Assembly (NCBI GenBank): GCA_963783575.1
Contig: CAWAOD010000009.1
Span: 352,001-416,000, forward strand
Length of the DNA stretch: 64,000 nucleotides
DNA from: an uncultured Spirochaetota bacterium
Lineage (GTDB): Bacteria > Spirochaetota > Brevinematia > Brevinematales > JAOACQ01
Direction: 5' to 3'
The notes beneath the pieces are model-generated. The model worked only from the letters and a program-made list of their open reading frames with translations. It ran no database searches and was not told where the DNA came from. A program made the translations under genes and the position numbers. Below are positions 22,394 to 46,620 of this stretch, piece after piece (the first letter of the stretch is position 1; each line of letters opens with the position of its first letter).

Positions 22394-22813
22394 AGGAAAG
22401 GATTGATGTTTAAATAAATATAAAACGATTTTTTATTGATTTAACTTATCAAATAAGTTCGCTTAATTACACCATGGAGCATAAGCGCAATTTCTGATTG
22501 AACTTATATTATACTTATAAGGAATCTTGGTACAAAATCATTGTTATTCGTAATTAACATTGTTTAAACAAGTTTGAGGATTTCAACCACGGAAGGTTGA
22601 GACCGAGGAATCAGAACAAGGACGTACTAATGACGAAGCGGTAAGTAAAAGACAGCTTTTACAAATAATCCTGAATAACAACATCTCAGTACTCAAAGAT
22701 TACTTCACATGAAAAATGGTGTTAATGCGAAGGGGCGATTTTTCTTTTCGATTCCTTTTCTTTTGAACGATCAAAAGAAAAGGAATAAAGCCATATGCCG
22801 TGGTTCCGCGGCA

Positions 22814-24940: not shown

Positions 24941-26080
24941 TTATTTTACCCGTCCTGCAACCAGGTATTCCGTTGTTTCACCGGCTTTATAAACCCTTTT
25001 CGAATGATCGATGTCTGCCCGGAACCTTTGATATGGGAGCTTTACAAATTTATAACCTGAACAATAAGCCTCGAAAAGACTCTTAATAAAATCTTCCGAA
25101 ACAAGCCCCTCGTTATTATATGAAAGAATGACATATCTAGAATTTATTTTTGAAAATAATTCCAAATATGCCGATTCCGATTTGCTCCTGAGGCTGTAAT
25201 CCGAAATCAATTCTTTACTGTCTCTTAAACCCGTTATTCCCCTCGGAAAAAATCTATTAAGATCCCATTTCACGATTGTTTCAAGTATATGATAATTTCC
25301 CGAGTACTGGCGGTGATTGTAAGGCGGATCAATGTAGGTTAATAATATATTATCGTTTTTCAATTGTTCAAGAAGTTTTAAGGAATCAACGCAAAATACC
25401 TTGTGATTTCCAGGATTGGATTTACTTTTAACAGGTTTTATTGCAATCATTTCCATCGGTTTTTCAGCGGTTTTTTTAATTTTTTTCAGGAAGGCACCGT
25501 AAACCGAAGCTGTGTTGGCCGCCCTGTCCGCTGATTCCAGAAGACAGGCTATAAGCCAGGTTTTTTCATTGCCGGCGAGAAGGCCTTTCCGGTTCCATTC
25601 TTCGATTTTATCCCTGACAGCCTGAATTTTAAGCCCATTTTCGCCTGAAAAATATTTTCTTCCCTGACTTCCGCCGTCGCAGTAATAATCATAAAATTCA
25701 CCGCTTTTACCGCTTAAATTTCCAAGATATGTTAATACCTTGATAAAAGGCATATCTTCGATTAAATCATTACTGCAGCCGTAAGAATGGGTTTTTACCG
25801 GTAAAGGTTTTGTATCATATACTGATTTTTCCTCGTCGCTGTTAAGAAGTTTTTTAAATTCCGGGAAGCCATCGAATATAATATAAGATGCCGTAAGGCA
25901 GTATGAGTAATACTGCCAGTCATTTGCGTAAACAGCATATCCCAGGGACTTAAAAAGCTGCGATACAACGCCGGTTCCGGAGAACAGATCAAGGACTGTT
26001 CCGCCTTCCGGAATATTGTATTCTCTAATAATATTTTCTATGTGTTTTAACAAGCTGAATTTAGATCCGATATAATTCAT
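24941..26080 (-). CDS. N6-adenine DNA methyltransferase (D12 class), apparently orphan
   Basis: MNYIGSK, DLFSGTG, YIDPPY and LSYNNEG motifs. Confidence 0.9.
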   Translation of the reverse strand: MNYIGSKFSLLKHIENIIREYNIPEGGTVLDLFSGTGVVSQLFKSLGYAVYANDWQYYSYCLTASYIIFDGFPEFKKLLNSDEEKSVYDTKPLPVKTHSYGCSNDLIEDMPFIKVLTYLGNLSGKSGEFYDYYCDGGSQGRKYFSGENGLKIQAVRDKIEEWNRKGLLAGNEKTWLIACLLESADRAANTASVYGAFLKKIKKTAEKPMEMIAIKPVKSKSNPGNHKVFCVDSLKLLEQLKNDNILLTYIDPPYNHRQYSGNYHILETIVKWDLNRFFPRGITGLRDSKELISDYSLRSKSESAYLELFSKINSRYVILSYNNEGLVSEDFIKSLFEAYCSGYKFVKLPYQRFRADIDHSKRVYKAGETTEYLVAGRVK

Positions 26081-26206
26081 GGTTTATTCTTCCTTAAACT
26101 TTTCAGGATTTTATTATAACCTATTATTGACGTTAATACATTAAATTTTTTTACTTTTTAAAATTTTCTAGTTATATTATATAAAAAATATATTTAAGGA
26201 AATTAT

Positions 26207-27903
26207 ATGAAAGTAACTGTACCGAAAGAAGAGATCGACAAGCTTATCAATGAATACGGATCAACGGAAAACGAGGCAGTTAAGGCGTTTCTGGACGCAC
26301 AACAGGCTTCCCAGGATGCTTTTCAGCAGGTGCTCAGCAAACAGCTTGGAGCCAAAAAGAACGGAAGCAACGGTAAAAGGGTAAATACCGTTTTTACCCC
26401 CCGGCAGATCAAGGAACACCTGGACCGATACGTTATAGGCCAGGAGGAGTACAAAAAGCGGCTTTCAATCGCGGCGGCATTCCATTTTGCAATACTGCAC
26501 TACCTTGACGAGAATCCCCAGGAAACAATGGTAAAACGCTTCCGCAAGAAAAACACAATCATAGCCGGCCCTTCCGGCAGCGGAAAAACATACAGCGTGG
26601 AAGTATTGGGGGATCTTCTTGAAGTCCCTACGCTTATTATAGACGCAACTGATTACACCGAAGCCGGGTATGTCGGTAAAAGCGCCGATGATATGATCCG
26701 TGAATTGATCGATATGGCCCCCGGGGCCACACATAATGAAAAAGGCGAATTCATTAATAAATACGGCGGAATTATTTTTATTGACGAAATCGACAAGAAA
26801 GCCAAAGACGGCCAGCTTGCCGGATATGATATTTCCCGCGAAGGATTCCAGAGAGCTGTATTGAAGCTGATAGAACGTAAGTTTGTTTCCATAGATAACC
26901 CGATGTCGCCGGCATCGCAGATTCAGGAAGTTATCAACGTCCAGCGCGGCGGCGGGACAAAAAAGCAGGAAAACATGATCAGCACGGAAAAGATTTTGTT
27001 CATTGTCGGCGGTTCTTTCCAGCGGGTGAACGACAGCCTTGAAGAGATAGTCAAGGACCGGATTAAGCATCAATCCGGCAGGGTCCGGGATGACGGAAGC
27101 TTTATGGTAACAGGATTCGGCCCGGATGAATCTGAAGGAAGAGCGAAGGCAATGCTGAATTTATACAAGGAAGCCGATGTCGACGATTATATCCGTTTCG
27201 GCCTTATACCCGAACTTGTGGGAAGAATTCCTATCAGAAGCTACGTGAACCTTCTTTCTAAAAACGATCTTATCCGAATTATGAGAGATACGGAGGATTC
27301 CATCATTCACCAGTATATCGCCGAATTCAAAGCCTTCGATATAGATATTCATTTTAACGATGAGGCTATTGAATTTGTCGCGGGGCTTTCGGAAAATAAA
27401 AAGACCGGCGCGAGGGCGCTTGTAAGCGTCTGGGAGAATATTTTCACGGATTTTCAGTATGAAATGCCAGGCTCTCATTTCAAGGAATTGACTATCAGTG
27501 AAGAATTATGCAGGGCCCTAAAGACGCCCTGTTAAATCTTCTTGAACTGTCTCCTTTTGTCGATTTTACCGACAGGTTCAACAAGGAATATAATATCGAG
27601 CTGGTTCTGGAACAGGAAGCCCAGGAATATGTGGAAAATTTTGCCCGACAGAACGGCATTCAGATATCCGACACTTTGAAACAACTTTTAAAAGGGGCAT
27701 CCTCTCTTAATTATATGAATATTACAGGAAAATACAATATTACCGTTGGTATGCTCAAGGACCCTATTTATTTCGATAAGCTGTTTACCGAATGGTACAA
27801 GCAGTCGAGATCAGACGGGCCGCTGCCGGACCTTCCGCAGACAGAACAACCTGAAAATAAGCAGAATGATTCAGGCAAGGCTGAAACCGGCGGAGTTGAA
27901 TAA
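26207..27903 (+). CDS. ClpX-like AAA+ ATPase, probably one gene with a frameshift near 27512
   Basis: YVIGQE, GPSGSGKT, TEAGYVG, IDEIDK, PELVGR and TGARAL motifs. ORF 27508..27903 overlaps in a different frame. Confidence 0.75.
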
Positions 27904-27921
27904 TTATTTCGGGAGCACGGA

Positions 27922-28758
27922 TTGTTATTATTCGTAATGACCGGAAACTCGGAAGCAAAGCCGTTAATTAAGAGCTGGCGTTTAAAAAAAGATCCTGCCG
28001 TCAGAAGAATGGAATATTATTCCGGAGATAACGCCCGCCTTATTATCAGCGGTAAAGGAATTGTCAGAACATCAGCCGCGGCTGCTTTTCTTCTCGGCAA
28101 AAATAACTACAGAGATACGGATATTTTAATCCATATAGGATTCTGTTTTGCCGTAAATACAGATTTCGCTCCAGGAACCCCTGTTATATGCAACAAAATT
28201 ATCAACGAATCATCGGGAAAATCATTTTACCCCGACATCATCTTTAAACATGAATTGAATGAATCATCAATTTCAAGCTATTCGTTTTTCAAAGGAATTG
28301 ATGCGGATGAAATAAAAGAAGCTGGGCTTTTCGATTCCGAAGCGGCCGGCTTTATTGAAAGCGCTCTTGCCTTCCTGCCTCCACATCGCGTTTTATGCAT
28401 TAAATTTATAATCCCGGCCGAAGAATACAATTCAAAGAGCGTCAACCGCCTGGGCAACAAATATATTTATTATAATCATCCTTTAATAGAAAAATTAATT
28501 CTTGCCGCTCAAACTTATTTTACAGAAAAACCAATTGCCATTCCCGATGATGAAATCGAATTTCTTGAACAAATATTTGTCAGACTGCGACTGACGGAGA
28601 CAATGAAGCATAGACTTATGGAACTTGCAGAGCATTACATATTTAAACATCAATGCGGGCTGGATGTATTAAAACCTTACCTGTTAATTGAACCGGAATC
28701 AAAACAAAAAAGAAATTCAATTTTCAATTCCATTGTAGACATACTTTCGGAAGGATGA
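27922..28758 (+). CDS. Nucleoside phosphorylase-like protein (SPL-associated)
   Basis: EAKPLI...SGKG...IHIGFC...FDSEAAG; directly upstream of the SPL-like gene. Confidence 0.65.
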   Translation: MLLFVMTGNSEAKPLIKSWRLKKDPAVRRMEYYSGDNARLIISGKGIVRTSAAAAFLLGKNNYRDTDILIHIGFCFAVNTDFAPGTPVICNKIINESSGKSFYPDIIFKHELNESSISSYSFFKGIDADEIKEAGLFDSEAAGFIESALAFLPPHRVLCIKFIIPAEEYNSKSVNRLGNKYIYYNHPLIEKLILAAQTYFTEKPIAIPDDEIEFLEQIFVRLRLTETMKHRLMELAEHYIFKHQCGLDVLKPYLLIEPESKQKRNSIFNSIVDILSEG

Positions 28759-28765
28759 TTTTAAT

Positions 28766-29749
28766 ATGTTTTCACACCTATATATTGAAAAAAAGGCTTT
28801 AGAATATCCAATGACCCGGAAAATTTTAAAAAGTTTTCCAAATTCCGTCAGAATAACAATTGATCATTACAAGGATTTTTTCTGCCGTCCGGATCAGGAT
28901 TATACCGCCCAGAAATCTTCTCAAAAGCTTATACTGGCCGTTAAGGAGGATAGGTTTCTTTACAGGGTGCCGGAAATCTGCATTGATAATGACCGGGAAA
29001 ATTTACAGAACAGCGAAATATATTACTCTTCAGCGGTAATAAACTGCATATATAACTGTGAATACTGTTTTTTACAGGGTATGTACCCATCCGCGAATAT
29101 TGTTGTTTTTGTCAATATTGATGATTTTTTCGGGGCTGCGGAAAATAAAATCAATGAATCGAAAGAAAATCATATTAAATTGAAAGTTTCTTATGACTCA
29201 GATATCATAGCATTGGAAAACATCGTACCATATGCTTACGAATGGATAAGATTCGCAAAAAGAAACCGGAGAGCAACGGTCGAAATCCGTACAAAAAGCG
29301 GAAATTTTAATTCGATATCGATGCTTGACCCCCCTGAAAATATTGATCTTGCCTGGACATTATCCCCGCAATCCGTTGCCGAAGAATTCGAAAATGGCGC
29401 TCCCTCGCTTGAATCAAGGATTTCATCCGTCCGGCAGGCCGTTGATAAAGGCTGGAAAGTCAGGCTTTGTTTTGACCCTGTGATAATGGTTAAAAACTGG
29501 AAAGATATTTATTCGGAATTTATTGATTATATTTTCACTCAATTGCCTTACGGTGAAATTCATGATATAAGCACAGGCGCATTCAGAATGCCGTTTGAAT
29601 ATTTCAAAAAGATAAAAAAAATCAGGCCTGATTCCGGTTTATATTACACTAAGCTGGAAAACCGTAGCGGAAATATCCGATATCCCGAAAAGTCAGAATT
29701 TGAGATGCTGGATCATATCGGCAATTGCATAAATAAATATAAAAGATGA
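28766..29749 (+). CDS. Spore photoproduct lyase family radical SAM protein
   Basis: NCIYNCEYCFLQGMY, EIRTKS, WTLSP and CFDPVI motifs. Confidence 0.85.
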   Translation: MFSHLYIEKKALEYPMTRKILKSFPNSVRITIDHYKDFFCRPDQDYTAQKSSQKLILAVKEDRFLYRVPEICIDNDRENLQNSEIYYSSAVINCIYNCEYCFLQGMYPSANIVVFVNIDDFFGAAENKINESKENHIKLKVSYDSDIIALENIVPYAYEWIRFAKRNRRATVEIRTKSGNFNSISMLDPPENIDLAWTLSPQSVAEEFENGAPSLESRISSVRQAVDKGWKVRLCFDPVIMVKNWKDIYSEFIDYIFTQLPYGEIHDISTGAFRMPFEYFKKIKKIRPDSGLYYTKLENRSGNIRYPEKSEFEMLDHIGNCINKYKR

Positions 29750-29789
29750 TAAGGCTTACCGAACTGATGTTCGGCGGTTGACTAGGGGG

Positions 29790-30040
29790 CCGCTCGAGAG
29801 GGCGGGTCATTAACGGGAAGAGCGCTGCGAAAGAAAGTAACTTTTGCAGCCCTTCGTAACTCACGTCCTGTTCGAACAGATCTACGGGCACGCGCGAGTC
29901 CTATCGCGCTCGCAAAAGTGACTTTCTTTCTCCGCTGTGCTTTCCCGTGAATCTAGTAAAGAAAGAACAGCCGGGAAATTAGTTTATGATTAATAATAAT
30001 CTGAAATTGACAGTTCTTTTTGGTTATTAGCCGGCTGTTC
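29790..30040. repeat. Dispersed structured non-coding element, copy B
   Basis: Long stem 29814-29847 / 29912-29947, second stem 29965-29974 / 30031-30040; homologous to 21861..22393. Confidence 0.65.
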
Positions 30041-30102
30041 TGAATATTTACAAAAGTCCCCTGTTTGTGGAAGAGAGGTTATATCTGTTTACAAAATGAT
30101 TC

Positions 30103-30132
30103 TTGACAATCAATAAATTAAAATGCTATAAT
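30103..30132 (+). promoter_or_regulatory. Consensus sigma70 promoter upstream of the cassette array (Pc-like)
   Basis: TTGACA (30103-08), 18-bp spacer, extended TG-c-TATAAT (30124-32). Confidence 0.75.
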
Positions 30133-30234
30133 AAAAATATTTATGTCCGTTGACCGGCAGAATATTTTTTTATAATATTACTAAGTTTTTTAATAAGTTC
30201 GTATTTTACAAGTATTTTGAAGTAATATATGAAG

Positions 30235-30292
30235 TGCGCATATCACTCCGAAATTAGAGTAATATACGCAATGCGTATATATCGAGTTGTAC
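30235..30292 (+). other. attI-like first recombination junction
   Basis: GTTGTAC at 30286-92 with no matching R'' upstream; preceded by the palindrome atatacgca-a-tgcgtatat (30262-80). Confidence 0.55.
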
Positions 30293-30331
30293 GAAAGAAA
30301 TGCCCAGTAAGTTTATTTTTTGGAGAGTGTT

Positions 30332-31735
30332 ATGAATAAAATAATTATTTTATTATTAGTAATATTGTTTAATATCTTTTTATCTAACAATTTATATTGT
30401 AATTGGTCTCCAGTTGATGGTTCGTCATTAAAACAACCAAGAACAATGCAGCTAATTAATAATAAGTCTATATTTATTGAAAATGAAACAATTTCAATAA
30501 AAATTGAAAAAGAAAGTGCTTTTGTTAGTGTATTATATAAATTAAAAAATACAATAAATAAACAGGATGTTAATGTCAGTTTCCCAGTTGAATATTTATT
30601 AGAACCATATTTTGATGAGTTTAATAATAGTAATAAGGTTGACTATTTCAACGCTTATGAAAAAAGTGCTGATAACTATCAAAAAATAGTTTGCAATGAA
30701 TTATCAATAACAAATAATTTTAATAAAGATAGAGATGAATATAATATAACTCGATGGTATAATGCAAAGCTCAATTTTGTAAAAAATGAACTTAAAGAAA
30801 TTAAAGTTGAATACAAGATGAGTCTCGGTTTTGGAGATGGTATATCAACAATAGATTATTTTGTTAGATATTCACCAAGGACTTTTAAATATTTATTAAC
30901 ACCTGCAAAAAATTGGGGAAATGGGTTAGCCAAACATATAGAAATTAATATGGATTTAAATGATTTAAAAACCAATAATTTAATACTAAATAATATAAAA
31001 TTTCCTGGAAGTAAAAATAAATTTGGAATTTTCCAGGGATTAATAAACATTATTTCCCCAAATAAAACATTAATTAACAATAAATATTATTATAGTTTTA
31101 AATCAGATAATTTCAATTTTAACAATGCAGAAAATATTGAATTGGAATTTGATGTGGGTTCAATTTATAATTCTCAAATAGCATTAAGTAATAGAATTTC
31201 TAATAATCAAATTATTTCAATGAAGTCTTCTTCTACTCTTATAGATAAAAAGTATAGTTATTCAGTTTCTAATTTAATTGATAATAATTTTTCTACTGCT
31301 TGGGTTGAAGGTTCTTCTGGCCAAGGAATCGGCGATTGGGTTGAGTTCACATTTGATAATCCGAAAATAGGTTATATTGGAATTATCAATGGCCTTTTTA
31401 TAAATGAAAAGCTATATTATGCCAACAGTAGAATAAAAAAATTAAATTATTATGTAGAATATAATACAAATTATAATGATCCAAATAACATAACTTTTCA
31501 ACAGCAATATTTAACATATCATACTAATAATTATGAATCTTATGACATTAACTTTGAAGATAAACCTTATTTTAATATTTCTAAGTCAAATTTTTATAGA
31601 GTATTAGAAAGAGTATATGAAAACCCAGATTCTCCATTTCCAATTAAAAAATTTAGATTAACAATAAAAGATGTTTATCCTGGAAAAAGTTATAAAGATA
31701 CCTGTATTTCAGAAATATATTTTTTAAGCAATTAA
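30332..31735 (+). CDS. Cassette 1: secreted protein with DUF4424-like N-terminus and discoidin/glycan-binding C-terminal domain
   Basis: Signal peptide; YLLTPAKNW; NLIDNNFSTAWVEG...DVYPGKSYKDTCISEI. Confidence 0.7.
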   Translation: MNKIIILLLVILFNIFLSNNLYCNWSPVDGSSLKQPRTMQLINNKSIFIENETISIKIEKESAFVSVLYKLKNTINKQDVNVSFPVEYLLEPYFDEFNNSNKVDYFNAYEKSADNYQKIVCNELSITNNFNKDRDEYNITRWYNAKLNFVKNELKEIKVEYKMSLGFGDGISTIDYFVRYSPRTFKYLLTPAKNWGNGLAKHIEINMDLNDLKTNNLILNNIKFPGSKNKFGIFQGLINIISPNKTLINNKYYYSFKSDNFNFNNAENIELEFDVGSIYNSQIALSNRISNNQIISMKSSSTLIDKKYSYSVSNLIDNNFSTAWVEGSSGQGIGDWVEFTFDNPKIGYIGIINGLFINEKLYYANSRIKKLNYYVEYNTNYNDPNNITFQQQYLTYHTNNYESYDINFEDKPYFNISKSNFYRVLERVYENPDSPFPIKKFRLTIKDVYPGKSYKDTCISEIYFLSN

Positions 31736-31759
31736 GTAAAACAACTGGGCGTTTCCTTC

Positions 31760-31983
31760 GTACAACATGGCGTACACGTTCCGCTCCGTCCTCACTAGCG
31801 TTCCGGGCGGTGCTCAGGCTTCGCCACATTTCGCTTTGGCACGGATTTTTGCCTGAAATTTATTAAAGAGGGAATATGATGTTTAATAATGACTGTATTT
31901 ATAGAAAAACTTTACGGCAAAGTGGCAAAAACACGTGCCAACCCTGACGGGCCGCGAAACGTCGTGTACGCCTGCCGTTATAT
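31760..31983 (+). other. attC-like site 1 (224 bp)
   Basis: R'' GTACAAC, R' GTTATAT; ggcgtacacg / cgtgtacgcc and ttggcacg..tttttgcc / ggcaaaaa.cacgtgccaa arms; AT-rich loop. Confidence 0.85.
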
Positions 31984-32036
31984 GCAATGCCTTAAATTTT
32001 CTTGTTTTATAAATATTAGTATAATAGGAGGTTAAA

Positions 32037-32531
32037 ATGAATCCTAATGTTAATTTGACATTATTTTCTAAGGATAGTTATCGCTCGACCCGACAAGGGA
32101 AAATGGTGCTTAATTTTAGTGCGCTCCAAATATTTCCCTTATTGTGCCCAGTAGAAGAGTATAAATGGTTCCCAGGCTGGGAATGTATAATGGTATATTC
32201 CAAAACAGGGATTGCAGAGAAAGATGCCGTCTTTTTAACCAAAGAAAAGGACGGTTCTAATATTGTCTGGACAGTTATCACATATGATCCACCCAATTTA
32301 ATTGAATTTAGTATCGTAAACGGTCTGAATTCCGTCGAGAGATTCAGTATTATTTTGACAGAGATATCTCATAAAAGTACTGAACTTGAATGGAAAATCA
32401 TGAATACATCTTATTCAAAAAATAGTATTGAACAAAACAAAAATCAAAATAATGAATCTTTTAATATTTTTTTAGAAGATAGAAAAAAGGAAATGGACTA
32501 CTATCTACGGACAGGGAAAATAATTCAATAA
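32037..32531 (+). CDS. Cassette 2: SRPBCC/START-like protein
   Basis: IFPLLCPVEEYKWFPGW motif; AGGAGG RBS. Confidence 0.75.
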   Translation: MNPNVNLTLFSKDSYRSTRQGKMVLNFSALQIFPLLCPVEEYKWFPGWECIMVYSKTGIAEKDAVFLTKEKDGSNIVWTVITYDPPNLIEFSIVNGLNSVERFSIILTEISHKSTELEWKIMNTSYSKNSIEQNKNQNNESFNIFLEDRKKEMDYYLRTGKIIQ

Positions 32532-32551
32532 TTATATTAATAAGGCACTGC

Positions 32552-32712
32552 GCACAACAGCAAGTCAGCGGTTGCGCTCGAGTACTCGCTCCACCCAAAT
32601 CGCCGGGCTGGTTGAAAGCAATTAAATATGTTAATTTTTATAAATGCTTTTTGATATAATATTTACAGCTTAATTAAATACCGGCGACTTCGCCGACTTG
32701 CACCCGTTGTAC
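32552..32712 (+). other. attC-like site 2 (161 bp)
   Basis: R'' GCACAAC, R' GTTGTAC; gcaagtcagcg / cgccgacttgc and tcgccgg / ccggcga arms. Confidence 0.85.
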
Positions 32713-32822
32713 GAAAATTTCCGGGCCGAAGCTGATGATATTACTTTTCCGGCGTCCTTGCCGGAAAAATGATTTATTATTTAAAATGTATTAGAATTTA
32801 TATCGATTAGTAGAGGTTTTAA

Positions 32823-34160
32823 ATGGCATTATTATCAGAAATTGAATCTGCACTAATGCTTGGAATTACAGTTGAATTATTAAATTCATATACAAAATAT
32901 TGTCCAAAATCTGGCGAAAATGTTAAATTAAAATATAAAATAGTAAAAGGTATAAAACATTTTGAAAAAGATGATATTCTATTTTATCATAAATATTTAA
33001 ACAGTCCGTGGCCTATGCCAAAAAAAGGAGAAAGACCATATATTCCTAAAGCAATCCAAGATTTTATAAAGTTTGAATCACATTATTCCTGTTCAATTTG
33101 CGGTCATATGGATAATGGTGAAATAGCACATATTGAAGCAGTTTCAACAACACTAAATAATAGTCCAGATAATCTTATTTATTTATGTCCAAATCATCAT
33201 ACAAAATATGATTATGGTTACAAACCTAATAGTAATGTTACATTAGAAGAAATTCGTGCTTCAAAACTTTTAAAAAGAAATGCTTTACAAAGAGTGATGA
33301 AATATGAGTCTAATACAGTTAAATTATTAAAAGTTACATTATTAAACATAAAATCAATCAGTGAAAAACTAGCCTTTGAAAGTGATAAAACAATGCTAGA
33401 GATTTATAATGTTGAATTACAAAACATTGTGAAGAATTTACCAGAATATATAGATAAAGCAAATGATGACGCAAAAAAAGATATAAGTTTAGTAAATGAA
33501 AAAGAACTATTATCTAAAAATGCACCAAATTTAATAAAATATTCAAATATAATAATAAAAGATTCTTCTTTGTTCAAAACATCCGTTGACTCAATAATCA
33601 AGATTTCTAACGAAATATTTATTGATTTAGATGAATATCCCTGTCCTCATTGTGGAGGAAGCGGACTAACAGGATTACTCGGTGATATATGTGTTTATTG
33701 TAAAGGTTCTTGTGTAGTCTCAAAGCAAATGGTTAATAGTTATGACTCTAATAAAATTGATGAAGTTGAATGTCCTCATTGTGGAGGAAGCGGACTAACA
33801 GGATTACTCGGTAATATATGTATTTATTGTAAAGGTTCTCGTAGAGTATCTCATAAAAAGTTTGATCAGTATGATCCAGATAAAATCGATGAAGTTGATT
33901 GCCCTCGTTGTGGGGGAAGCGGACTAACAGGATTACTCGGTGATATATGTACTTATTGTAAAGGTTCTCGTAGAGTATCTCATAAAAAGTTTGATGAGTA
34001 TGATCCCGATGAAACCAATGAAGTTGAATGTCCTCATTGTAGGGGAAGTGGTCTATCAGGATTAGTCGGTAATGTATGTAAATTATGTAAAGGTTCATGT
34101 GTTGTAACTAAGATAGTATATAAAGAATATATCAAGAAATATGGAACTATTGGCGATTAA
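32823..34160 (+). CDS. Cassette 3: HNH endonuclease with four DnaJ-like zinc-finger repeats
   Basis: CSICG...EIAHI...NLIYLCPNHH HNH motif; four CPxCxGSG...CxxCKGS repeats with 43-aa (129-bp) period. Confidence 0.85.
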   Translation: MALLSEIESALMLGITVELLNSYTKYCPKSGENVKLKYKIVKGIKHFEKDDILFYHKYLNSPWPMPKKGERPYIPKAIQDFIKFESHYSCSICGHMDNGEIAHIEAVSTTLNNSPDNLIYLCPNHHTKYDYGYKPNSNVTLEEIRASKLLKRNALQRVMKYESNTVKLLKVTLLNIKSISEKLAFESDKTMLEIYNVELQNIVKNLPEYIDKANDDAKKDISLVNEKELLSKNAPNLIKYSNIIIKDSSLFKTSVDSIIKISNEIFIDLDEYPCPHCGGSGLTGLLGDICVYCKGSCVVSKQMVNSYDSNKIDEVECPHCGGSGLTGLLGNICIYCKGSRRVSHKKFDQYDPDKIDEVDCPRCGGSGLTGLLGDICTYCKGSRRVSHKKFDEYDPDETNEVECPHCRGSGLSGLVGNVCKLCKGSCVVTKIVYKEYIKKYGTIGD

Positions 34161-34224
34161 AGCCTCCGCCGTCCTGGGCTCCGGCTTTTTGCTTAAACAT
34201 TCGGCCCGGAAAACATCGTACAAC

Positions 34225-35978
34225 GGCCTTGTAGAAAAAGTTAATTTCAGGTAATAATCCTCCATTCCCAAACAGTTTGTTTTTTTTGATCTGTCTGGAA
34301 TTACTTTATTTATATAAAACCGGGCTGAATTTACCGGCAAAGCTGCTTTTATTCCATCACTATGCCATTATATCCCTCCATAGACCTGAATTTTCCCGAT
34401 ATTGTGCACAGTATTATATAATACCCATTGAATATTCACTTTTCCCTTTCCCCTCAGCGTAAATCGATCCATACCTTTACATGCCCTTATATTCCCGAAT
34501 ACAGGCTCAACTATAGCCATTCTTTTCGCATAAAGCTTTCTGCCTTCAGGTGTATCTATGAACTTTCTCATTTCGTCCGAGTAATGTCTGTTATCCGCAT
34601 TTAACGGCCTTTTTGGCTATATAGTAGCTCTTATGGAACCTCCGTGTTCCCAAGGTTGTTTGATTTTATTTTAATTCTTCAGGAAGTCTTTCTGGAATGG
34701 ACAATTACGGCAGGCCGATAACCGGCACATATACTTCGCATATGTAATATGATTCACCGTATAGTTATATCTGAACCTGAGTTCCTCTCCTTTCTTGCAT
34801 ATATAAACATTATTTTCCGGATCATATTGAAAATCATCAATTGTATACTGCCCTTTCTTCGCAGGCTTATGTCTGTCAGCGGTTTCAAACCTGCAATCGC
34901 GCTTCCTGAAATTCGTATCCGGGATGACCGGTTTCATACCGTTTTGCGAAATATATTTCAGGTTCTTTTCGCTGAAATAATTGGTGTCCGCGGTGATTAT
35001 TTTATCCTTTAAATCTTTTCCCAATTCTACTTTTGCTTTACGGATCATCCCTTTCAGGAATTCCCCCTCAGACCCGCTCCCAAAAGCTTCGGGATATACC
35101 ACAACCTGATACTTCGAATCCACTACAGAAAGTCCGTTGTAGCCCTGGATAACACCATGTGAACTCTTTATTTTCGCACTCTCGTTGTCAGTGACATTGG
35201 ACTGCTTTTCACCATGCCGTGCCTTGTTTTTGGGTTTTTCACTTTCCAGAAACTTTTCTATCTTTTCAGCTTTCTTTAAAATCTTCTCGATCCGTGCCAG
35301 ATCTTTTTCCTTATCCTTCTCAGGAAAACCGCCGTCCTGATCACGCTTTTCATGTTCATCAAGCATTTCCTTAACCAGGTTTTCCAGCTTCTCTTTTTTC
35401 TTCTTCAAATCCTTAAATGTTCCGCTCCATTCCTTTGATGCATTTGACGATAGTTTGCACCCGTCCAGCGCGAACATATCCCCGCCTATGAGATTCAGTT
35501 CGTCACAAACCATCAATATATTCAGGAATACGGTATTTATCTCATTTTTCATCGAAGAAACAAAATCGGCGATTGAAGTAAAGTGCGGTATTGAATTGGC
35601 GGAAATGGCTTTGGCTATAATATTCGTTTTACACAAATATTCGATTTCACGTGATGTAAAAATACCGCGGGAATAGCTGTAGAGTATTATCTTCAGCATA
35701 ACCCGCGGATTATAGGCCGGGGCACCGGTAGCATCGTTCTTATACTTATTCTCAAAGATTTTAAGATCAATTCTGCTGTCAACAAGAAAACTGAGTGTAT
35801 ATTCAAATGTTCCCGGTATAATCTGCTCATCGAATGAGACAGGTATGAGTTCCATTTGATCGTAATTAACTTTCTTATGTCTTGCCATAATTGATTTCCC
35901 CTCTTGATTTTATTTACAATATATTTTAAAGTATAACCGTTATTTTGTACATGAATGACGGACTTTTTCTACAGGCTC
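34225..35978 (-). mobile_element. IS1182-family element B, full-length copy
   Basis: Imperfect 17-bp IRs (ggccttgtagaaaaagt / actttttctacaggctc); flanked by an AAC direct repeat. Confidence 0.88.
34368..35888 (-). pseudogene. IS1182-family transposase, frameshifted into 34671..35888 and 34368..34571
   Basis: GAPAYNP, LDGCKL, ADTNY motifs; C-terminal KRMAIVEPVFGNI lies in a different frame. Confidence 0.8.
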
Positions 35979-36399
35979 AACAACAGCTTAGCGTTCCGTT
36001 CCTCGGCGTTGCGACGCCTGCGGTACTCAGGGCTGCGCCCACATTTGCCTTTGACACAGTTTTTGCGTTATAATATTTGAAGGAAAGTTTTATGAGAAAT
36101 AATAAAATTTTACACTTTAAGGAAGCATTTACACAAAAAGGCAAAAACTGCGCCAATCGCTGACACGAACGTCAAACGTCGCCAAGCTATACCGTTATGT
36201 GCAATACTCGCGTTCGATTTAATAAATATTTATAGGGCGATTTAATTTTGCTTCTAAATTTTTTTTGATATAAAATAATACTTATAAATTTCAACTTTTT
36301 TTTGACTTTATTCTACTTTCTCATATAGAATATTTGACAGATTAAAATTAAAATATAATTATAAAAATAAGTTAATTGTAAAGTAAGGAGGATATTATT

Positions 36400-36819
36400 A
36401 TGATAAGTAAATCATTTTCAACAACAACTAAGAAGGTTTCAAAAGAGCAACTTTGGAAGCTTATGTCCCACATCAATGATTGGAAAAAGTGGGATAACAC
36501 AGTTGAATATTCTGAACTTCAAGGAGACTTTAAAACTGGATCAACATTTATTTTAAAACCTAAAGAAGGACCAAAAGTAAAAATAAAATTAATTGAAGTA
36601 AAACCAAATAATTATTTTAAAGACTGTACTATATTTCCTTTGGCTAAAATGTTTGGAGAACATTGGTATGAGGAAACGTCTGATGGCGTAAAAATTACTG
36701 TAACGATGACTATAAAAGGTATTCTGTCCTTTTTATGGTATAAAATAGTTATGAAGGAATTAGTTGAACATCTTCCGGAAGATGTAAAAAATCAAATTCA
36801 AGCTGCATATAAGTTATAA
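36400..36819 (+). CDS. Cassette 4 gene 1: SRPBCC/polyketide cyclase family protein
   Basis: LWKLMSHINDWKKW motif; AGGAGG RBS. Confidence 0.8.
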   Translation: MISKSFSTTTKKVSKEQLWKLMSHINDWKKWDNTVEYSELQGDFKTGSTFILKPKEGPKVKIKLIEVKPNNYFKDCTIFPLAKMFGEHWYEETSDGVKITVTMTIKGILSFLWYKIVMKELVEHLPEDVKNQIQAAYKL

Positions 36820-36873
36820 TTTATTTGCACTATAATTAGAGTAATCTAGAAGATTTATAAAAGAGGTATTAAT

Positions 36874-37305
36874 ATGAAATATTGGATTAATACAGTTTCA
36901 AAAGATCATGTTATGATTGGTAAAAAAAATGGAATAGTTCAAGCCAATCATGGAAAATTATCACCATTGAAACGATTAAAAGTTGGAGATCAAATAATTT
37001 ATTATTCGCCGAAAACCTCATTCGAAAATGGTGAACCTTTAAAAGCATTTACAGCAATTGCAGAAATAATCGATGAAAAAATATATCAAATAGAATTAAG
37101 TGATGACTTTAAACCATATAGAATAAATGCTAAATATTTGGATTGCAATGAAGTTAAAATTGAACCTCTGATAGAAAGTTTAAATTTTATTAAGAATAAA
37201 AAATCTTGGGGTTATATGTTTAGATTTGGATTATTTGAAATAACAAAACATGATTTTGATTTGATTTATTCGATGATGAAAAAACAACGCGAGTACAGCA
37301 CATAA
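36874..37305 (+). CDS. Cassette 4 gene 2: EVE domain protein
   Basis: YWINTVSKDHV...QANHGK...GDQIIYYSP...WGYMFRFGLFEI; stop codon lies within R'' ACATAAC (37300-06). Confidence 0.88.
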   Translation: MKYWINTVSKDHVMIGKKNGIVQANHGKLSPLKRLKVGDQIIYYSPKTSFENGEPLKAFTAIAEIIDEKIYQIELSDDFKPYRINAKYLDCNEVKIEPLIESLNFIKNKKSWGYMFRFGLFEITKHDFDLIYSMMKKQREYST

Positions 37306-37604
37306 CGGCCTTGTAGAAAAAGTTAATTTCAGGTAATAATCCTCCCTTTCCAAACAGCATGTTTTTTTTGATCTGTCCGGAATCACTTTTTTATATAAAA
37401 CCGGGCTGAATTTACCGGCAAAACTGCTTTTATTCCATCACTATGCCATTATATACCACCATATGGAAATGTCAAGAGTTTTTCCCATATCTGCGCTCGG
37501 GTAATTTCCCACCCCTTCCACAAGAGTATTTCCCATATGCTTCACAAGAGTTTTCCCCATACCTTCCACGTGAGTATTTCCCATAGTGAGGAGGCAAAGA
37601 ATGG

Positions 37605-38354
37605 TTACTCAACCTCCTTATTCAAATTTTGTATTCTGTAAGATTCTCCGCTCAAGTTATAAATATTTGAATGATGTAAAAGCCTATCCAGAAGAGCGGT
37701 TGTCATAATCGGGTCTCCCATCATTTCAGCCCAATCCTGAAATCCCTTATTCGATGTTATCACAATTGATGTCTTTTCATACAATTCACTTACAAGACTA
37801 AAGAATAGATTTGCCTCCTTCTTTTCGATAGGTGTGTAACCTATCTCATCAATGATTAATAAGTGTGACTTCATCATCCGGTTCAGCCTGAAAGCAGAGC
37901 TTCTCTGGATGTCCGCCGTTTTCAGAAACTTAATGAGAGTAGTCATCCTTTCAAAGCAGACAATATATCCCTTTTCAACTGCCCGGATTCCGATACTAAT
38001 TGCCAGATGCGTTTTCCCCAGCCCCGGAGACCCAAAGAACAACAGGTTATGATGATTATCAATCCAGCAGAAATCCAATAGCTGTGAAACATCCATTTTA
38101 GATATTCCATTCACTTTTTCAAAATTAAAACCTTCCACATCTTTGCGGACCGGGAAGTGTGCTCCTGCCATATTCCGCTGAAAACGTTTTTCCACTCTAT
38201 AATTCAATTCCAGAGAAAGCAGCCTCTGCAGAAAACTCAGATAAGACTCTTTTGCCTTTTCAGCCTCACCAATTTCCTCATCAATCCGTTTTATCATACC
38301 CTTCAACCCGAGAGTTGTAAGCGCAGTTATGATTTGTTCTCTTATCTTCAACAT
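37605..38354 (-). CDS. istB: IS21 helper ATPase IstB
   Basis: GSPGLGKTHLA, IIDEIGY and ALLDRLLHH motifs. Confidence 0.95.
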   Translation of the reverse strand: MLKIREQIITALTTLGLKGMIKRIDEEIGEAEKAKESYLSFLQRLLSLELNYRVEKRFQRNMAGAHFPVRKDVEGFNFEKVNGISKMDVSQLLDFCWIDNHHNLLFFGSPGLGKTHLAISIGIRAVEKGYIVCFERMTTLIKFLKTADIQRSSAFRLNRMMKSHLLIIDEIGYTPIEKKEANLFFSLVSELYEKTSIVITSNKGFQDWAEMMGDPIMTTALLDRLLHHSNIYNLSGESYRIQNLNKEVE

Positions 38355-39901
38355 TGCCGGCCCCCGATGGAGTCACAGAAACTCTGGTATTTCCCGATGT
38401 CTGATTTAGCTACTTCAAGATAGTGTTCAGGATTCACTGAAGGCCTGACAATCTTTTCAACATTCAAGGGTATTTCTGCCTTTTCTGTTATAAAACAGTT
38501 CAGGTAATTATCCCACAAATCCTTCATGGAATAACTATCACTCTCCAGGCAGTTTGAGATCGCTTGTGTAAGCTTCCCGGTATCAATTATCTTGTCCCTG
38601 AAGTATTTTCTTCCGGAAAGACATTGGTCCCTTACATAACGATTGAACTTCCTGAAATTACATTCAAGAAAATCCTTCCAGCCGGGAATATCAAAGTACC
38701 CGCTTACTTCTTCTTTCAATAACTGCACAGTCTTTCCCATTTCCCGGATCATTGACCTGTTGGTTACAATCTGCCCCGGAATCACTGAAAGCCGGTATTC
38801 GGCGATTTGCTCTCCCGTTATCCTGTCAAAGACAAAAAGCCGACTGCCCGTCTTGTAGATGTCCACCGAACCGTTCCTGTATTTTTCGGGAATATCATAC
38901 TGGCTTGCATCAACTGCGATCCGGCATTTATCGCTTACACTGCGCTCTTCCCTTGCTCCTATCCTGTCTTTACGGAATATCGAATTCCTGACAGATTGGA
39001 GATATGGTCTTTCCGTTTCAATCTCTATCAGTGGTATTTTCATTGTAGCCTGGGATATTCTCCCGTTGGCTTTTCTTTCCAGCCATTTCATCAGGCTTTC
39101 TTCCGCTTCCATTAAACTGTTGAACTCCCGGACTGAGAAGAAACCGTGCTTGATGAATTTGACTACGTTTTCAATCTTTCCCTTACTTTCCGGGTCAGCA
39201 GGTCGGCACACATACATTTTAAGACCCATTTCCCCGATGAAATACTGAAAGTCTTTCGTGTAGATGATATCGCCTGAGTTCTCACTCGCAACCATCGTGC
39301 AGTCCTGATCGATGACAAGTTCATGCGGTATCCCGCCCATATATGCGAAACAGTCCAACAGATGATTGATAAGGTCTTCTGTCCGGAATGGCCTCTCCTG
39401 GAGGGCCGCATACTTAAAACGACTGGCGGATAACACCGCGGCAAATATGTAATACCTTCTGCCATATCTGTCGGTATATTGACCGAAATCAAGCTGGAGC
39501 TGCTTTCCATATGGCATGTCAGGCACTTTTGTGTAATACCGTCGCTTTTCATTCAAGGTAAGCTGCCCGCTTTCAATCAGGTAATGTACGAAATTCCTCA
39601 TCGTATTTTCATTCGCCGGTAGTTTGCCTTTTACCTCCAATAAATAGTCATACAAAGCAGACATATTCAGCCGGATGTAATCATTCTTTTCATATACTTT
39701 CAATATGTCTGTTTTTATTCCTTCGAATTCTTTTTCACGGAAAGAGAATTCCATCAGGCTTTTCTGGTATTCGGAATCGTTCATAGCCCAATATTTTCGG
39801 ACTGTCTTAATATCTATTGACAGTTCCCGGGATACACCATTTTTACTTTTCCCCAAAAGTTTCAGTTTTTTTATGTCCTGATACATAATATTTTTCACCA
39901 T
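38348..39901 (-). CDS. istA: IS21 transposase IstA
   Basis: N-terminal HTH; QLDFG, IDQD and SKGKIENVV motifs. Confidence 0.95.
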   Translation of the reverse strand: MVKNIMYQDIKKLKLLGKSKNGVSRELSIDIKTVRKYWAMNDSEYQKSLMEFSFREKEFEGIKTDILKVYEKNDYIRLNMSALYDYLLEVKGKLPANENTMRNFVHYLIESGQLTLNEKRRYYTKVPDMPYGKQLQLDFGQYTDRYGRRYYIFAAVLSASRFKYAALQERPFRTEDLINHLLDCFAYMGGIPHELVIDQDCTMVASENSGDIIYTKDFQYFIGEMGLKMYVCRPADPESKGKIENVVKFIKHGFFSVREFNSLMEAEESLMKWLERKANGRISQATMKIPLIEIETERPYLQSVRNSIFRKDRIGAREERSVSDKCRIAVDASQYDIPEKYRNGSVDIYKTGSRLFVFDRITGEQIAEYRLSVIPGQIVTNRSMIREMGKTVQLLKEEVSGYFDIPGWKDFLECNFRKFNRYVRDQCLSGRKYFRDKIIDTGKLTQAISNCLESDSYSMKDLWDNYLNCFITEKAEIPLNVEKIVRPSVNPEHYLEVAKSDIGKYQSFCDSIGGRQC

Positions 39902-40171
39902 TCCTGCCTTCCTTTAATGAATTTTCATTAAAGGTAATCTTCAAGCCTCTCTATGGGAAATCTGTTTGTGACAGGTATGGGAATTTCATTTATTGCTACC
40001 CTGGTAAATTAGTTTATCATTTCCACCATAGACCTGAATTTTTCCTGTAAAGAACAAAGCCTGCTTATGTGCGCCCCGCAACATTAACGCCATTTCCGAT
40101 TGAGATGATGACAATTTGTTCGTTAGGAATATGGGCCAATTAGACGCTTACTGATTGTCAGTATAAAGATT

Positions 40172-42863: not shown

Positions 42864-43301
42864 ATGAAAAGGGAAATTAACGTATTAGGTGGGAGTGAAG
42901 TTTTAGACAACGGCCCCTTTTATCACGGGACGAAAGCGGATTTGCGGGTTGGCGATTTGTTGACTGCTGGGTTTCGGTCAAATTACAAACCCGAAGTCAT
43001 TATGAATCACATTTATTTTACAGCCTTGGCTAATGGGGCAGGACTTGCCGCAGCCTTGGCCAAAGGTGATGGACGTGAACGTGTATATATAGTTGAACCG
43101 ACGGGTAGCTTTGAAAATGACCCGAATGTTACGGACAAAAAATTTCCTGGTAATCCAACACGCTCATATCGCACTAAAGCGCCTTTGAAAATCGTCGGCG
43201 AATTAACAGATTGGGTGAGACCAACGCCTGAGGAACTTCAAAAATGGCGCGTAAAGTTGGCTGATATCAAAACGGATTCGAAAGCAGAAATTATTAATTA
43301 A
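42864..43301 (+). CDS. arr: NAD(+)-rifampin ADP-ribosyltransferase
   Basis: GPFYHGTKADL, HIYFTA and YIVEPTG.FENDPNVTDKKFPGNPTRSYR motifs. Confidence 0.95.
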   Translation: MKREINVLGGSEVLDNGPFYHGTKADLRVGDLLTAGFRSNYKPEVIMNHIYFTALANGAGLAAALAKGDGRERVYIVEPTGSFENDPNVTDKKFPGNPTRSYRTKAPLKIVGELTDWVRPTPEELQKWRVKLADIKTDSKAEIIN

Positions 43302-43394
43302 AAACATGGAAGAATTATAATGAATTCCTGGCGGCATCCTTGCCGGTAAAATAAGGAACCAGTTGTTCGTTATAAATTAATTGGAGGATTCATA

Positions 43395-46586: not shown

Positions 46587-46620
46587 TCGTACAAACACGG
46601 CATACCTGTTCCGCTCCGTC
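46587..46620 (+). other. Left half of an attC-like site, truncated by an IS110 remnant
   Basis: tcgtacaaacacggcatacctgttccgctccgtc aligns with the start of site 1 (tcgtacaacatggcgtacacgttccgctccgtc). Confidence 0.7.

What the first reader, a model, noticed from the sequence alone, without database searches (positions are those of the whole stretch)
30103..37306. Integrase-less integron-like platform: promoter, attI-like site and four cassettes with oversized attC-like sites
Seen: a consensus promoter (30103-32), a first GTTGTAC junction (30286), then four co-oriented AT-rich cassettes delimited by AAC/GTT boxes. R'' boxes are GTACAAC, GCACAAC, GTACAAC and ACATAAC; R' boxes are GTTATAT, GTTGTAC and GTTATGT. 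The intervening palindromic sites are 224, 161 and about 226 bp, and further half-sites occur at 46587 and 48826. No tyrosine recombinase is encoded in the 64 kb. Established: canonical attC sites are about 57-141 bp with GTTRRRY / RYYYAAC boxes. Inference: this is a divergent cassette system with GTTRTRY boxes and large AT-rich loops, served in trans or orphaned, that default attC searches may miss.
Basis: partly seen in the sequence, partly recalled or inferred. Interest (0 to 1): 0.88.

Follow-up and report, generated by a model that had tools for sequence, protein, structure and literature searches.

The report
Satellite dock of insertion-less integron
This is a real gene-cassette docking site with four cassettes and oversized hairpin recombination sites, one of about eleven such docks in the genome, and it is likely served from a distance by a single recombinase that lacks the helix held to be essential for integron enzymes.

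Summary
Observation confirmed: a promoter (30103-30132), an attI-like site (crossover G|TT at 30286) and four co-oriented cassettes. Two sites are intact (224, 161 bp); the third (226 bp) is split by an IS1182. The recombinase lies elsewhere. Contig C5 carries a frameshifted tyrosine recombinase directly followed by a 92%-identical attI and a long co-oriented array. Cassettes 2-3 of the window recur there at 99.85% identity, starting at G|TT. The enzyme is IntI-related but lacks the IntI-specific insertion (65 versus 106 residues between motifs) and has an N-terminal, probably HARP-like extension. No canonical IntI was found. The genome holds 11 attI-like sites, only one beside a near-complete recombinase gene. 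Integrase-less docks also occur in two related genera, where cassettes are shuffled at GTT. Sites reach 253 bp, favour bottom-strand folding and mostly lack extrahelical bases. An IS1182 lineage inserts at the R'' triplet (21 of 22 left ends). Activity in trans and single-strand recombination are inferred, not shown. Ten literature searches found no description of this system. This scan has noted the insertion-less integrase, integrase-less docks and attC-targeting IS1182 before, on other DNA.

The parts
29789..30050 (.). Dispersed ~255-bp hairpin repeat upstream of the promoter; role unknown
   Evidence: Many copies genome-wide; lies within 260 bp upstream of 6 of 12 promoter modules
30103..30132 (+). 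Cassette promoter candidate (Pc-like), TTGACA-18-TATAAT
   Evidence: 12/12 consensus match; 12 near-copies in the genome, 9 with an attI-like site within 400 bp downstream; transcription not tested
30225..30292 (+). attI-like site: inverted pair ATATACG-N5-CGTATAT, a 5-base spacer, then the crossover G|TT at 30286/30287; a second, weaker inverted pair lies about 37 bp upstream
   Evidence: 92% identical over 65 bp to the DNA right behind the recombinase gene at G000:C5:458192-458256; similarity among copies ends at GTT
30287..31977 (+). Cassette 1: ORF 30332-31735 (467 aa) with a C-terminal NADase-type glycan-binding domain
   Evidence: PF25302 and NF047619; own core GTTGTAC is the exact complement of its R''
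31760..31983 (+). attC-like site 1, 224 bp; 10-bp L stem without a bulge, branched interior
   Evidence: z -5.8; recombinogenic-fold probability bottom 0.072, top 0.074; 88% identical copies in G011 arrays
31978..32706 (+). Cassette 2: ORF 32037-32531 (164 aa, no Pfam family)
   Evidence: Copy in the integrase-linked array on C5, with homology starting at the G|TT junction
32552..32712 (+). attC-like site 2, 161 bp
   Evidence: z -3.6; fold probability bottom 0.84, top 0.16; identical copy at C5:472894
32707..36194 (+). Cassette 3: ORF 32823-34160 (445 aa; weak HNH match and CXXC zinc-finger repeats), with an IS1182 inside its site
   Evidence: Pfam; weak PADLOC PDC-M68A match, E 3e-6; copy on C5
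34225..35978 (-). attC-targeting IS1182-family element; transposase frame 34671-35888 is 405 aa, shorter than the 494-aa copy on C16; flanked by a duplicated AAC
   Evidence: NF033551 over its cut-off for the C16 copy P0135; end contexts
35975..36200 (+). attC-like site 3, 226 bp; its R''-like box GCTCAAC is formed by the IS right end plus the duplicated AAC; original R'' at 34218-34224
   Evidence: Fold probability bottom 0.35, top 0.023
36195..37306 (+). Cassette 4: two ORFs, 36400-36819 (SRPBCC/polyketide-cyclase-like) and 36874-37305 (EVE domain); only the R'' of its site is left
   Evidence: Pfam; own core GTTATGT is the exact complement of R'' ACATAAC
37307..37463 (+). Left-end fragment of the attC-targeting IS1182, cut by an IS21 (37464-40028)
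46589..46620 (+). Orphan left arm of a site-1-type attC, followed by an IS110-type remnant
   Evidence: 84% over 32 bp to site 1; PF02371
48826..48885 (+). Orphan right arm of a site-3-type attC ending in GTTATAT, upstream of an alpha/beta-hydrolase ORF
   Evidence: 79% over 76 bp to site 3

Best explanation
The region is an integrase-less promoter-plus-attI dock with four gene cassettes, and it is likely one satellite of a genome-wide integron-like system whose recombinase, encoded on contig C5, lacks the IntI-specific (I2) insertion. Shown: the dock, the cassettes, their exchange between arrays at G|TT, the shared attI, and the missing insertion. Inferred (about 0.65): the short recombinase excises cassettes as circles by recombining the folded bottom strands of the large sites and inserts them at any attI copy. 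There the shared sigma-70 promoter would express the nearest cassettes. Inferred (about 0.4): the N-terminal HARP-like domain takes over the single-strand handling that I2 gives in canonical integrases, which would fit the lack of extrahelical bases. Inferred (about 0.6): satellites arise when a complete platform loses most of its integrase gene or when the promoter-attI head is copied, and they keep receiving cassettes afterwards. An IS1182 lineage inserts after the R'' AAC, and its right end rebuilds an RYYYAAC box, so it probably rides inside cassettes without killing the site.
For: The window attI is 92% identical to the sequence right after the C5 recombinase gene. Intact homologues in G011, G004 and G005 are followed by the same attI type and co-oriented arrays. 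No IntI passes the TIGR02249 cut-off in G000, in G011/G002/G009/G013/G017 (0 of 5) or in 5 more family members. The motif spacing is 65 residues in 116 of 117 measurable homologues and 106 in the 7 measurable IntIs; the alignment to VchIntI4 leaves 42 residues unmatched. Each cassette's R'' complements its own 5' core: 21 of 34 perfectly, against a permutation mean of 7.1, with 0 of 100000 permutations as high. The boxes paired in the array as it stands match in only 2 of 13. In relatives the match is 13 of 13. Window 31975-34612 equals C5:472317-474954 at 99.85%, starting at the junction. In G011 the first cassette at an integrase-linked attI recurs at 100% over 595 bp inside an integrase-less array, starting exactly at GTT. 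L stems of 31 sites hold 293 Watson-Crick pairs over 21 stem sequences, with 14 wobbles that work on the bottom strand against 1 on the top; bottom-strand fold probability is higher in 27 of 31. Satellites occur in G004 and G011. Two G000 satellites keep the last ~27-30 codons of an integrase gene. A Logan record (P0105) carries the C-terminal part of the C5 enzyme in one frame.
Against: No recombination was observed, and the reads laid did not cover the recombinase or any junction. The C5 gene is broken at two places in this assembly, and only one break is contradicted by another record. The genome is 89.85% complete, so a missing IntI is not excluded. The right end of the shared cassette 2-3 block lies inside the multi-copy IS1182, and the site after the IS differs between the window and C5, so homologous recombination between IS copies took part. 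Site 1 shows no strand preference (0.072 vs 0.074). Cassette 2's R'' mismatches its own core at 3 of 4 positions. About 10 of 31 sites do carry one extra base on the R'' arm, so 'no extrahelical base' is not universal. 26 of 44 wider homologue loci showed no site downstream with my strict scanner. The HARP match is weak: over the cut-off in 1 of 5 proteins scanned. The window's dock has no integrase remnant.
Confidence: 0.68

Rival explanations
1. Orphaned relic: the dock is what is left of a once complete platform. It no longer receives cassettes, and the cassettes it shares with C5 came by IS-mediated homologous recombination or gene conversion.
For: The C5 gene is frameshifted in this assembly. 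Most satellite arrays are short and riddled with IS. Two satellites keep integrase gene tails. The shared block ends inside an IS. Loss of intI is a published route to CALINs (PMC4889954, PMC8618304; passages).
Against: The left end of the shared block falls at G|TT behind unrelated attC arms. The promoter and attI are well conserved, with 0-3 differences in 10 of 12 promoter copies. Each attI copy is followed by a different first cassette. G011, which has intact enzymes, shares IS-free cassettes between linked and unlinked arrays.
Confidence: 0.2
2. Same enzyme, different chemistry: the insertion-less recombinase acts on double-stranded core sites, or on a hairpin that only mimics duplex DNA with both strands exchanged, as Xer does with CTXphi. 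The large palindromes would then be kept for another reason, such as termination or IS targeting.
For: I2 is reported as necessary for cassette capture and single-strand recombination, and Xer proteins lack it (PMC7790495; passages). Most L stems have no bulge. attI and attC share a CGTATA-like L box.
Against: Arm complementarity is kept over 21 different stems with a 14:1 bottom-strand wobble bias. R'' tracks the cassette's own core, which a purely double-stranded L'-R' site would not need.
Confidence: 0.17
3. An ordinary CALIN: the true enzyme is a canonical IntI that is unassembled or visits from another cell, and the short recombinase is a bystander.
For: Completeness is 89.85%. Canonical IntIs occur in 15 of 151 genomes of the phylum sample. 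A CALIN with its own attI is published (PMC9892861; passages).
Against: The attI abuts the short recombinase gene in G000, G011, G004, G005 and G002. None of 10 related genomes tested has an IntI over the cut-off. Sites of 153-253 bp exceed the 57-141 bp range (PMC5371416).
Confidence: 0.05

Closest known systems
Sedentary chromosomal integrons (IntI, attI, Pc, attC; VchIntI4, PDB 2A3V)
   Same: G|TT crossover; AAC/GTT boxes; R''-spacer-L stem with an asymmetric unpaired central spacer; bottom-strand bias; co-oriented cassettes; best sequence and Foldseek match is 2A3V.
   Different: The recombinase lacks the ~40-residue IntI insertion and has an N-terminal extension; sites are 153-253 bp against 57-141 bp (PMC5371416); most lack extrahelical bases; there are 11 attI copies in one genome.
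Treponema-type 'inverted' integrons (PMC3607928, passages)
   Same: [quoted passage not shown]
   Different: Treponema-type enzymes pass the IntI model and keep the insertion; their attC sites are 63-132 bp; that paper states there is one attI per integron.
CALIN elements (PMC4889954) and the CALIN with its own attI in Shewanella prophage M16-3 (PMC9892861)
   Same: A cassette array with no neighbouring integrase; possible service in trans; in M16-3 the CALIN has its own attI copy.
   Different: Here there are ten dispersed docks, nine with a shared promoter, tied to a non-IntI enzyme; M16-3 has one extra attI beside a canonical IntI.
Duplicated and truncated attI cassettes of class 1 and 2 integrons (PMC12901181, abstract only)
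   Same: More than one attI-type site is used by one integrase.
   Different: Those sites lie inside mobile arrays of canonical integrons, not as separate promoter-bearing chromosomal docks.
XerA-like / NF040815 'site-specific tyrosine recombinase/integron integrase' family
   Same: 5 of 5 full-length homologues pass the NF040815 cut-off; same short catalytic domain; structure match to 4A8E, Z 24.3, rmsd 10.0, 257 aligned.
   Different: G000 has separate XerC/D-like genes; this enzyme heads cassette arrays, and its tree position is nearer to IntI than to XerC/D.
IS1111-attC group (PMC11187229, passages) and palindrome-targeting IS1182 members such as IS1272 (PMC5678879, passages)
   Same: An insertion sequence that sits at a fixed point of attC sites; some IS1182 members are known to target palindromes.
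   Different: This is a DDE IS1182 with a 3-bp AAC duplication at R''. IS1111-attC elements are DEDD enzymes, and IS1272 replaces the target stem-loop.

Membership tests
Integron (canonical) | Tyrosine recombinase with the IntI-specific additional domain (I2) | tested here: not met
   Motif spacing 65 vs 106 residues; 42-residue gap against 2A3V; below the TIGR02249 cut-off
Integron (canonical) | Integrase gene adjacent to attI | tested here: not met
   Not in this window; met for the C5 copy with its non-IntI enzyme
Integron (canonical) | attI with G|TT crossover ahead of the first cassette | tested here: met
   11 copies align up to GTT and diverge right after it
Integron (canonical) | Pc promoter facing the cassettes | tested here: inconclusive
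   12/12 consensus, conserved in 12 copies; no RNA data
Integron (canonical) | attC with AAC/GTT boxes, paired R and L stems and an unpaired central spacer | tested here: met
   31 sites, including the window's 3; shuffle control
Integron (canonical) | Extrahelical bases on the R''/L'' arm | tested here: not met
   None in the first 10 pairs of the window's 3 sites; about 10 of 31 sites carry one extra base
Integron (canonical) | attC length 57-141 bp | tested here: not met
   21 G000 sites are 153-253 bp; range from PMC5371416
Integron (canonical) | Cassettes move as units cut at G|TT | tested here: met
   Own-core complementarity and shared cassettes with GTT boundaries
Integron (canonical) | Recombination of the folded bottom strand with replicative resolution | not testable with these tools
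   Only indirect support: wobble bias 14:1 and bottom fold probability higher in 27 of 31
CALIN | Two or more attC sites with no integron integrase nearby | tested here: met
   3 sites and no PF00589 hit in the window; detection by IntegronFinder itself not run
XerC/XerD/XerA chromosome-dimer resolvase | Acts at a dif site in chromosome segregation | not tested
   Separate XerC/D-like genes exist in G000; dif was not sought
IS1182 family (element at 34225-35978) | Transposase matching NF033551; terminal inverted repeats; short target duplication | tested here: met
   278.6 bits against cut-off 270 for the full-length copy P0135; ends and AAC duplication
HARP domain (recombinase N-terminus) | PF07443 match | tested here: inconclusive
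   Over the cut-off in P0004, just under in P0015 and P0054, weak (E 0.003) in the G000 frame, absent in P0002; the fold search did not test residues 1-73

The most novel reading that the evidence does not exclude
A distributed integron: one recombinase without the I2 helix serves about ten separate promoter-attI docks across the chromosome. It recombines single-stranded, branched, bulge-free sites up to 253 bp with the help of a HARP-like domain, which would be a second, independent or ancestral solution to cassette capture. A dedicated IS1182 rebuilds the R'' box and rides in the cassettes.
Probability: 0.4. Interest if true: 0.88.

Novelty: new variant of a known kind. Interest (0 to 1): 0.72.

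Why it matters
The I2 helix is used to define integron integrases, and it is held to be what allowed single-strand cassette capture; the authors of PMC7790495 note the lack of intermediates. A natural family without I2 that heads shuffled cassette arrays makes that question testable with existing assays. Several docks with their own promoters would let one enzyme express many cassettes in first position at once. Tools that require the IntI domain or cap attC size would miss or mislabel these arrays: 15 of 21 sites here exceed 200 bp, which I recall as IntegronFinder's default cap. The cassette pool of these lineages may therefore be undercounted.

Tried and rejected
Rfam scan of 29500-50300 at E up to 5 gave no match, so no known RNA family explains the sites. 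Reads: 2 runs were laid on the C5 array. Both were contigs covering mostly IS copies; there were no joints, and the recombinase was barely covered. The frameshifts and circular junctions therefore stay open. One X1 contig matched an attC from R'' to GTT, with an IS right end before and a different cassette start after; it may come from another organism, so it is only a hint. The idea that the promoter module is a decayed integrase 3' end was not supported by HMM search. The idea that the oversized interiors derive from the dispersed 255-bp repeat was not supported, as their BLAST hits do not overlap. Trees (quick method): IntI is one clade (100), and IntI plus the short enzymes are apart from XerC/D (99). 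Whether the short enzymes are sister to IntI or paraphyletic is unresolved (one clade not rejected, p-AU 0.667; long-branch and truncated rows were left out). Fold searches of the whole model returned only tyrosine recombinases and did not test the N-terminal domain. The attI model R1 was built from the G000 copies, so its G000 hits are circular; an exact attI pattern found only the two G011 integrase-linked copies. Literature searches returned no listing that describes an I2-less integron or an attC-targeting IS1182; one search returned 0 papers. The library lacks most subscription papers, and Messier and Roy 2001 was not held. No supplements were read. IntegronFinder is not available here.
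Full report
Observation. A scan for AAC...GTT pairs with complementary arms finds exactly three sites in 30001-37400 (224, 161 and 226 bp); 300 shuffles gave 0.007 on average. Sites 1 and 2 fold far better than shuffles (z -5.8 and -3.6). The third site is split by an IS1182 (34225-35978), and the fourth is reduced to its R'' box, followed by an IS1182 end and an IS21. Cassettes encode a protein with a NADase-type glycan-binding domain, an unknown 164-aa protein, an HNH/zinc-finger-repeat protein, and an SRPBCC plus EVE pair. No tyrosine recombinase lies in the window.

The enzyme. The genome (G000; 4.9 Mb, 89.85% complete; probably Spirochaetota, inferred from the nearest named loci) has 15 PF00589 matches, and none passes the IntI cut-off. 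The best IntI-like match, at C5:457130-458193, is broken at two places. It is followed at once by a sequence 92% identical over 65 bp to the window's attI-like stretch, and then by a co-oriented array of at least 14 cassettes with the same large sites. Homologues were found in 8 of 40 relatives, 6 of 11 in the same family. In G011, G004 and G005 the gene is intact (bar one truncated G011 copy at a contig end) and is followed by attI and cassettes; in G002 the contig ends just after attI. The protein family (alignment A1) passes NF040815 and not TIGR02249 (5 of 5 full-length proteins). It lacks the IntI insertion: 65 residues separate two catalytic-domain motifs in 116 of 117 measurable homologues, against 106 in the 7 measurable IntIs, and the alignment to VchIntI4 skips 42 residues. 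Of 90 homologues with a long N-terminus, 85 have a W..W motif, with weak HARP matches. A Logan record, P0105, is identical over the shared part and runs through the second break in one frame, so at least that break may be an assembly error or a variant; the window's cysteinyl-tRNA synthetase is likewise split. The first break is unresolved.

The docks. Eleven attI-like sites align up to GAG|TT and diverge right after it. A genome-wide pattern found 13 matches against 2 and 2 in reversed and complemented controls; 3 of the 13 look like chance. Only one attI lies beside a near-complete recombinase gene. A shared promoter occurs 12 times, and 9 copies have an attI-like site within 400 bp (8 flagged, plus C9:633021 seen). 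Two satellites keep the last 27-30 codons of an integrase gene before attI (E about 1e-8), so some arose by loss of most of the gene; the window's dock has no such remnant. In G004, G009 and G011:C2 a similar promoter lies between the integrase stop and attI (read). Integrase-less docks with arrays also occur in G004 (C12) and G011 (C2).

Cassettes move. A cassette's R'' is the exact complement of the core at its own 5' end in 21 of 34 G000 cassettes (109 of 136 positions; permutation means 7.1 and 69.0; 0 of 100000 as high). That set contains one duplicate counted by slip, a mismatching one, and intervals that hold IS elements. The boxes that pair in the array as it stands match in 2 of 13. 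In relatives the own-core match is 13 of 13, after dropping duplicate cassettes and IS-containing intervals; three of the dropped intervals mismatch. Window cassettes 2-3 equal C5:472317-474954 at 99.85%, from the junction behind unrelated attC arms. The block ends inside the IS, and a different site follows on C5, so IS-by-IS recombination also acted. In G011 several cassettes recur in different order in linked and unlinked arrays with boundaries at or within a few bases of GTT.

The sites. Twenty-one G000 sites measure 153-253 bp, and 15 exceed 200 bp; ten G011 sites measure 138-223 bp. The published range is 57-141 bp (PMC5371416, passages). The L stems hold 293 Watson-Crick pairs over 21 different sequences, with 14 bottom-strand wobbles against 1 top-strand wobble. 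The fold with R and L paired is more probable on the bottom strand in 27 of 31 sites, though not in site 1. The window's three sites have no bulge in the first 10 pairs; about 10 of 31 have one extra base on the R'' arm, the arm that carries extrahelical bases in canonical sites (PMC5027507, passages). Cores vary: 23 of 35 fit GTTRTRY. In a wider GTDB sample, 9 of 44 homologue loci had 3 or more sites downstream (up to 229 bp in a Jejudonia genome) and 26 had none; the totals were 59 sites in 390 kb downstream against 15 in 300 kb upstream.

The parasite. Of 22 left ends of the IS1182 found by BLAST, 21 follow an R''-type AAC, and 9 of 9 right ends are followed by AAC and an attC arm. A search without the AAC in the pattern gave 22 of 25, two of the three misses looking like chance matches. 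In G011, 8 of 8 related copies follow such an AAC, and 6 of 8 continue into an attC arm. The right end plus the duplicated AAC reads GCTCAAC, a valid RYYYAAC box, and such sites still fold. I infer that the IS usually leaves the site usable and travels in the cassette.

Mechanism. Most likely, the insertion-less recombinase excises cassettes by recombining folded bottom strands and inserts them at any attI copy, the window's dock being one such target with its own promoter. The anatomy and past movement are shown; the strand chemistry, the role of the N-terminal domain and present activity in trans are inferred. The main rival is that the dock is an orphaned relic reshuffled by IS recombination.

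Comparison. It works like an integron but fails membership on the IntI domain, which is described as specific to and necessary for integron integrases (PMC4889954, PMC9668308, PMC7790495; passages). Co-orientation is known from Treponema (PMC3607928, passages). A CALIN with its own attI is known from one prophage (PMC9892861, passages), and duplicated attI pieces from class 1 and 2 integrons (PMC12901181, abstract). attC-targeting is known for IS1111-type elements (PMC11187229, passages), and palindrome-targeting for some IS1182 members (PMC5678879, passages). Passages of PMC8352920, PMC8618304, PMC8435808 and PMC13616975 added no description of this system. Ten searches found none either, within a library that lacks most subscription papers. 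Earlier notes of this scan report each of the three features in other genomes. They are unchecked AI notes and are not counted as support.

Verdict. A real feature; new variant of a known kind; interest 0.72.

Noticed in passing
window 7446-8930, 16752-18236, 50204-51688 (and about 35 copies in G000): A second IS1182 (494 aa) whose copies sit behind a short recurring motif (GCCCTGAG or CCCTTCG), which suggests targeting of a dispersed repeat rather than of attC.
   Followed up: partly
window 42864-44945: A rifampin ADP-ribosyltransferase (arr)-like gene and a beta-lactamase-fold gene lie between two 226-bp repeats downstream of the array; no attC-like site was found around them.
   Followed up: partly
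window 51945-53338: Cysteinyl-tRNA synthetase is split into two frames, a hint of indel errors in the assembly.
   Followed up: no
window 29789-30050: The ~255-bp dispersed hairpin repeat precedes 6 of 12 promoter modules, and all 12 modules carry a conserved (C)CGTTG motif about 10 bp after the -10 box; both are unexplained.
   Followed up: partly
G000:C5:24633-24783; C15:2544-2706, 22594-22742, 33630-33790; C6:15506-15707: Palindromes of 149-202 bp with near-perfect TAAC/GTTA ends; those on C5 and C15 lie near clustered paired tyrosine recombinase genes. They are a separate class from the cassette sites.
   Followed up: no
L016, L017, L164 (G011): One ~585-bp cassette with no ORF of 70 aa or more recurs at least eight times across three arrays and holds its own internal palindrome.
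   Followed up: partly
L016, L017, L018 (G011): Three near-identical integrase platforms each follow a type I restriction-modification methyltransferase-like fragment (recognised by eye, not scanned), which suggests that the whole platform was duplicated.
   Followed up: no
window 24941-29749: An adenine methyltransferase, a ClpX-like ATPase, two unknown ORFs and a spore-photoproduct-lyase-like gene lie just upstream of the dock.
   Followed up: no
L139, L140 (G000:C13:218724, C4:27050): Integrase 3'-end remnants lie between promoter and attI in two satellites.
   Followed up: yes
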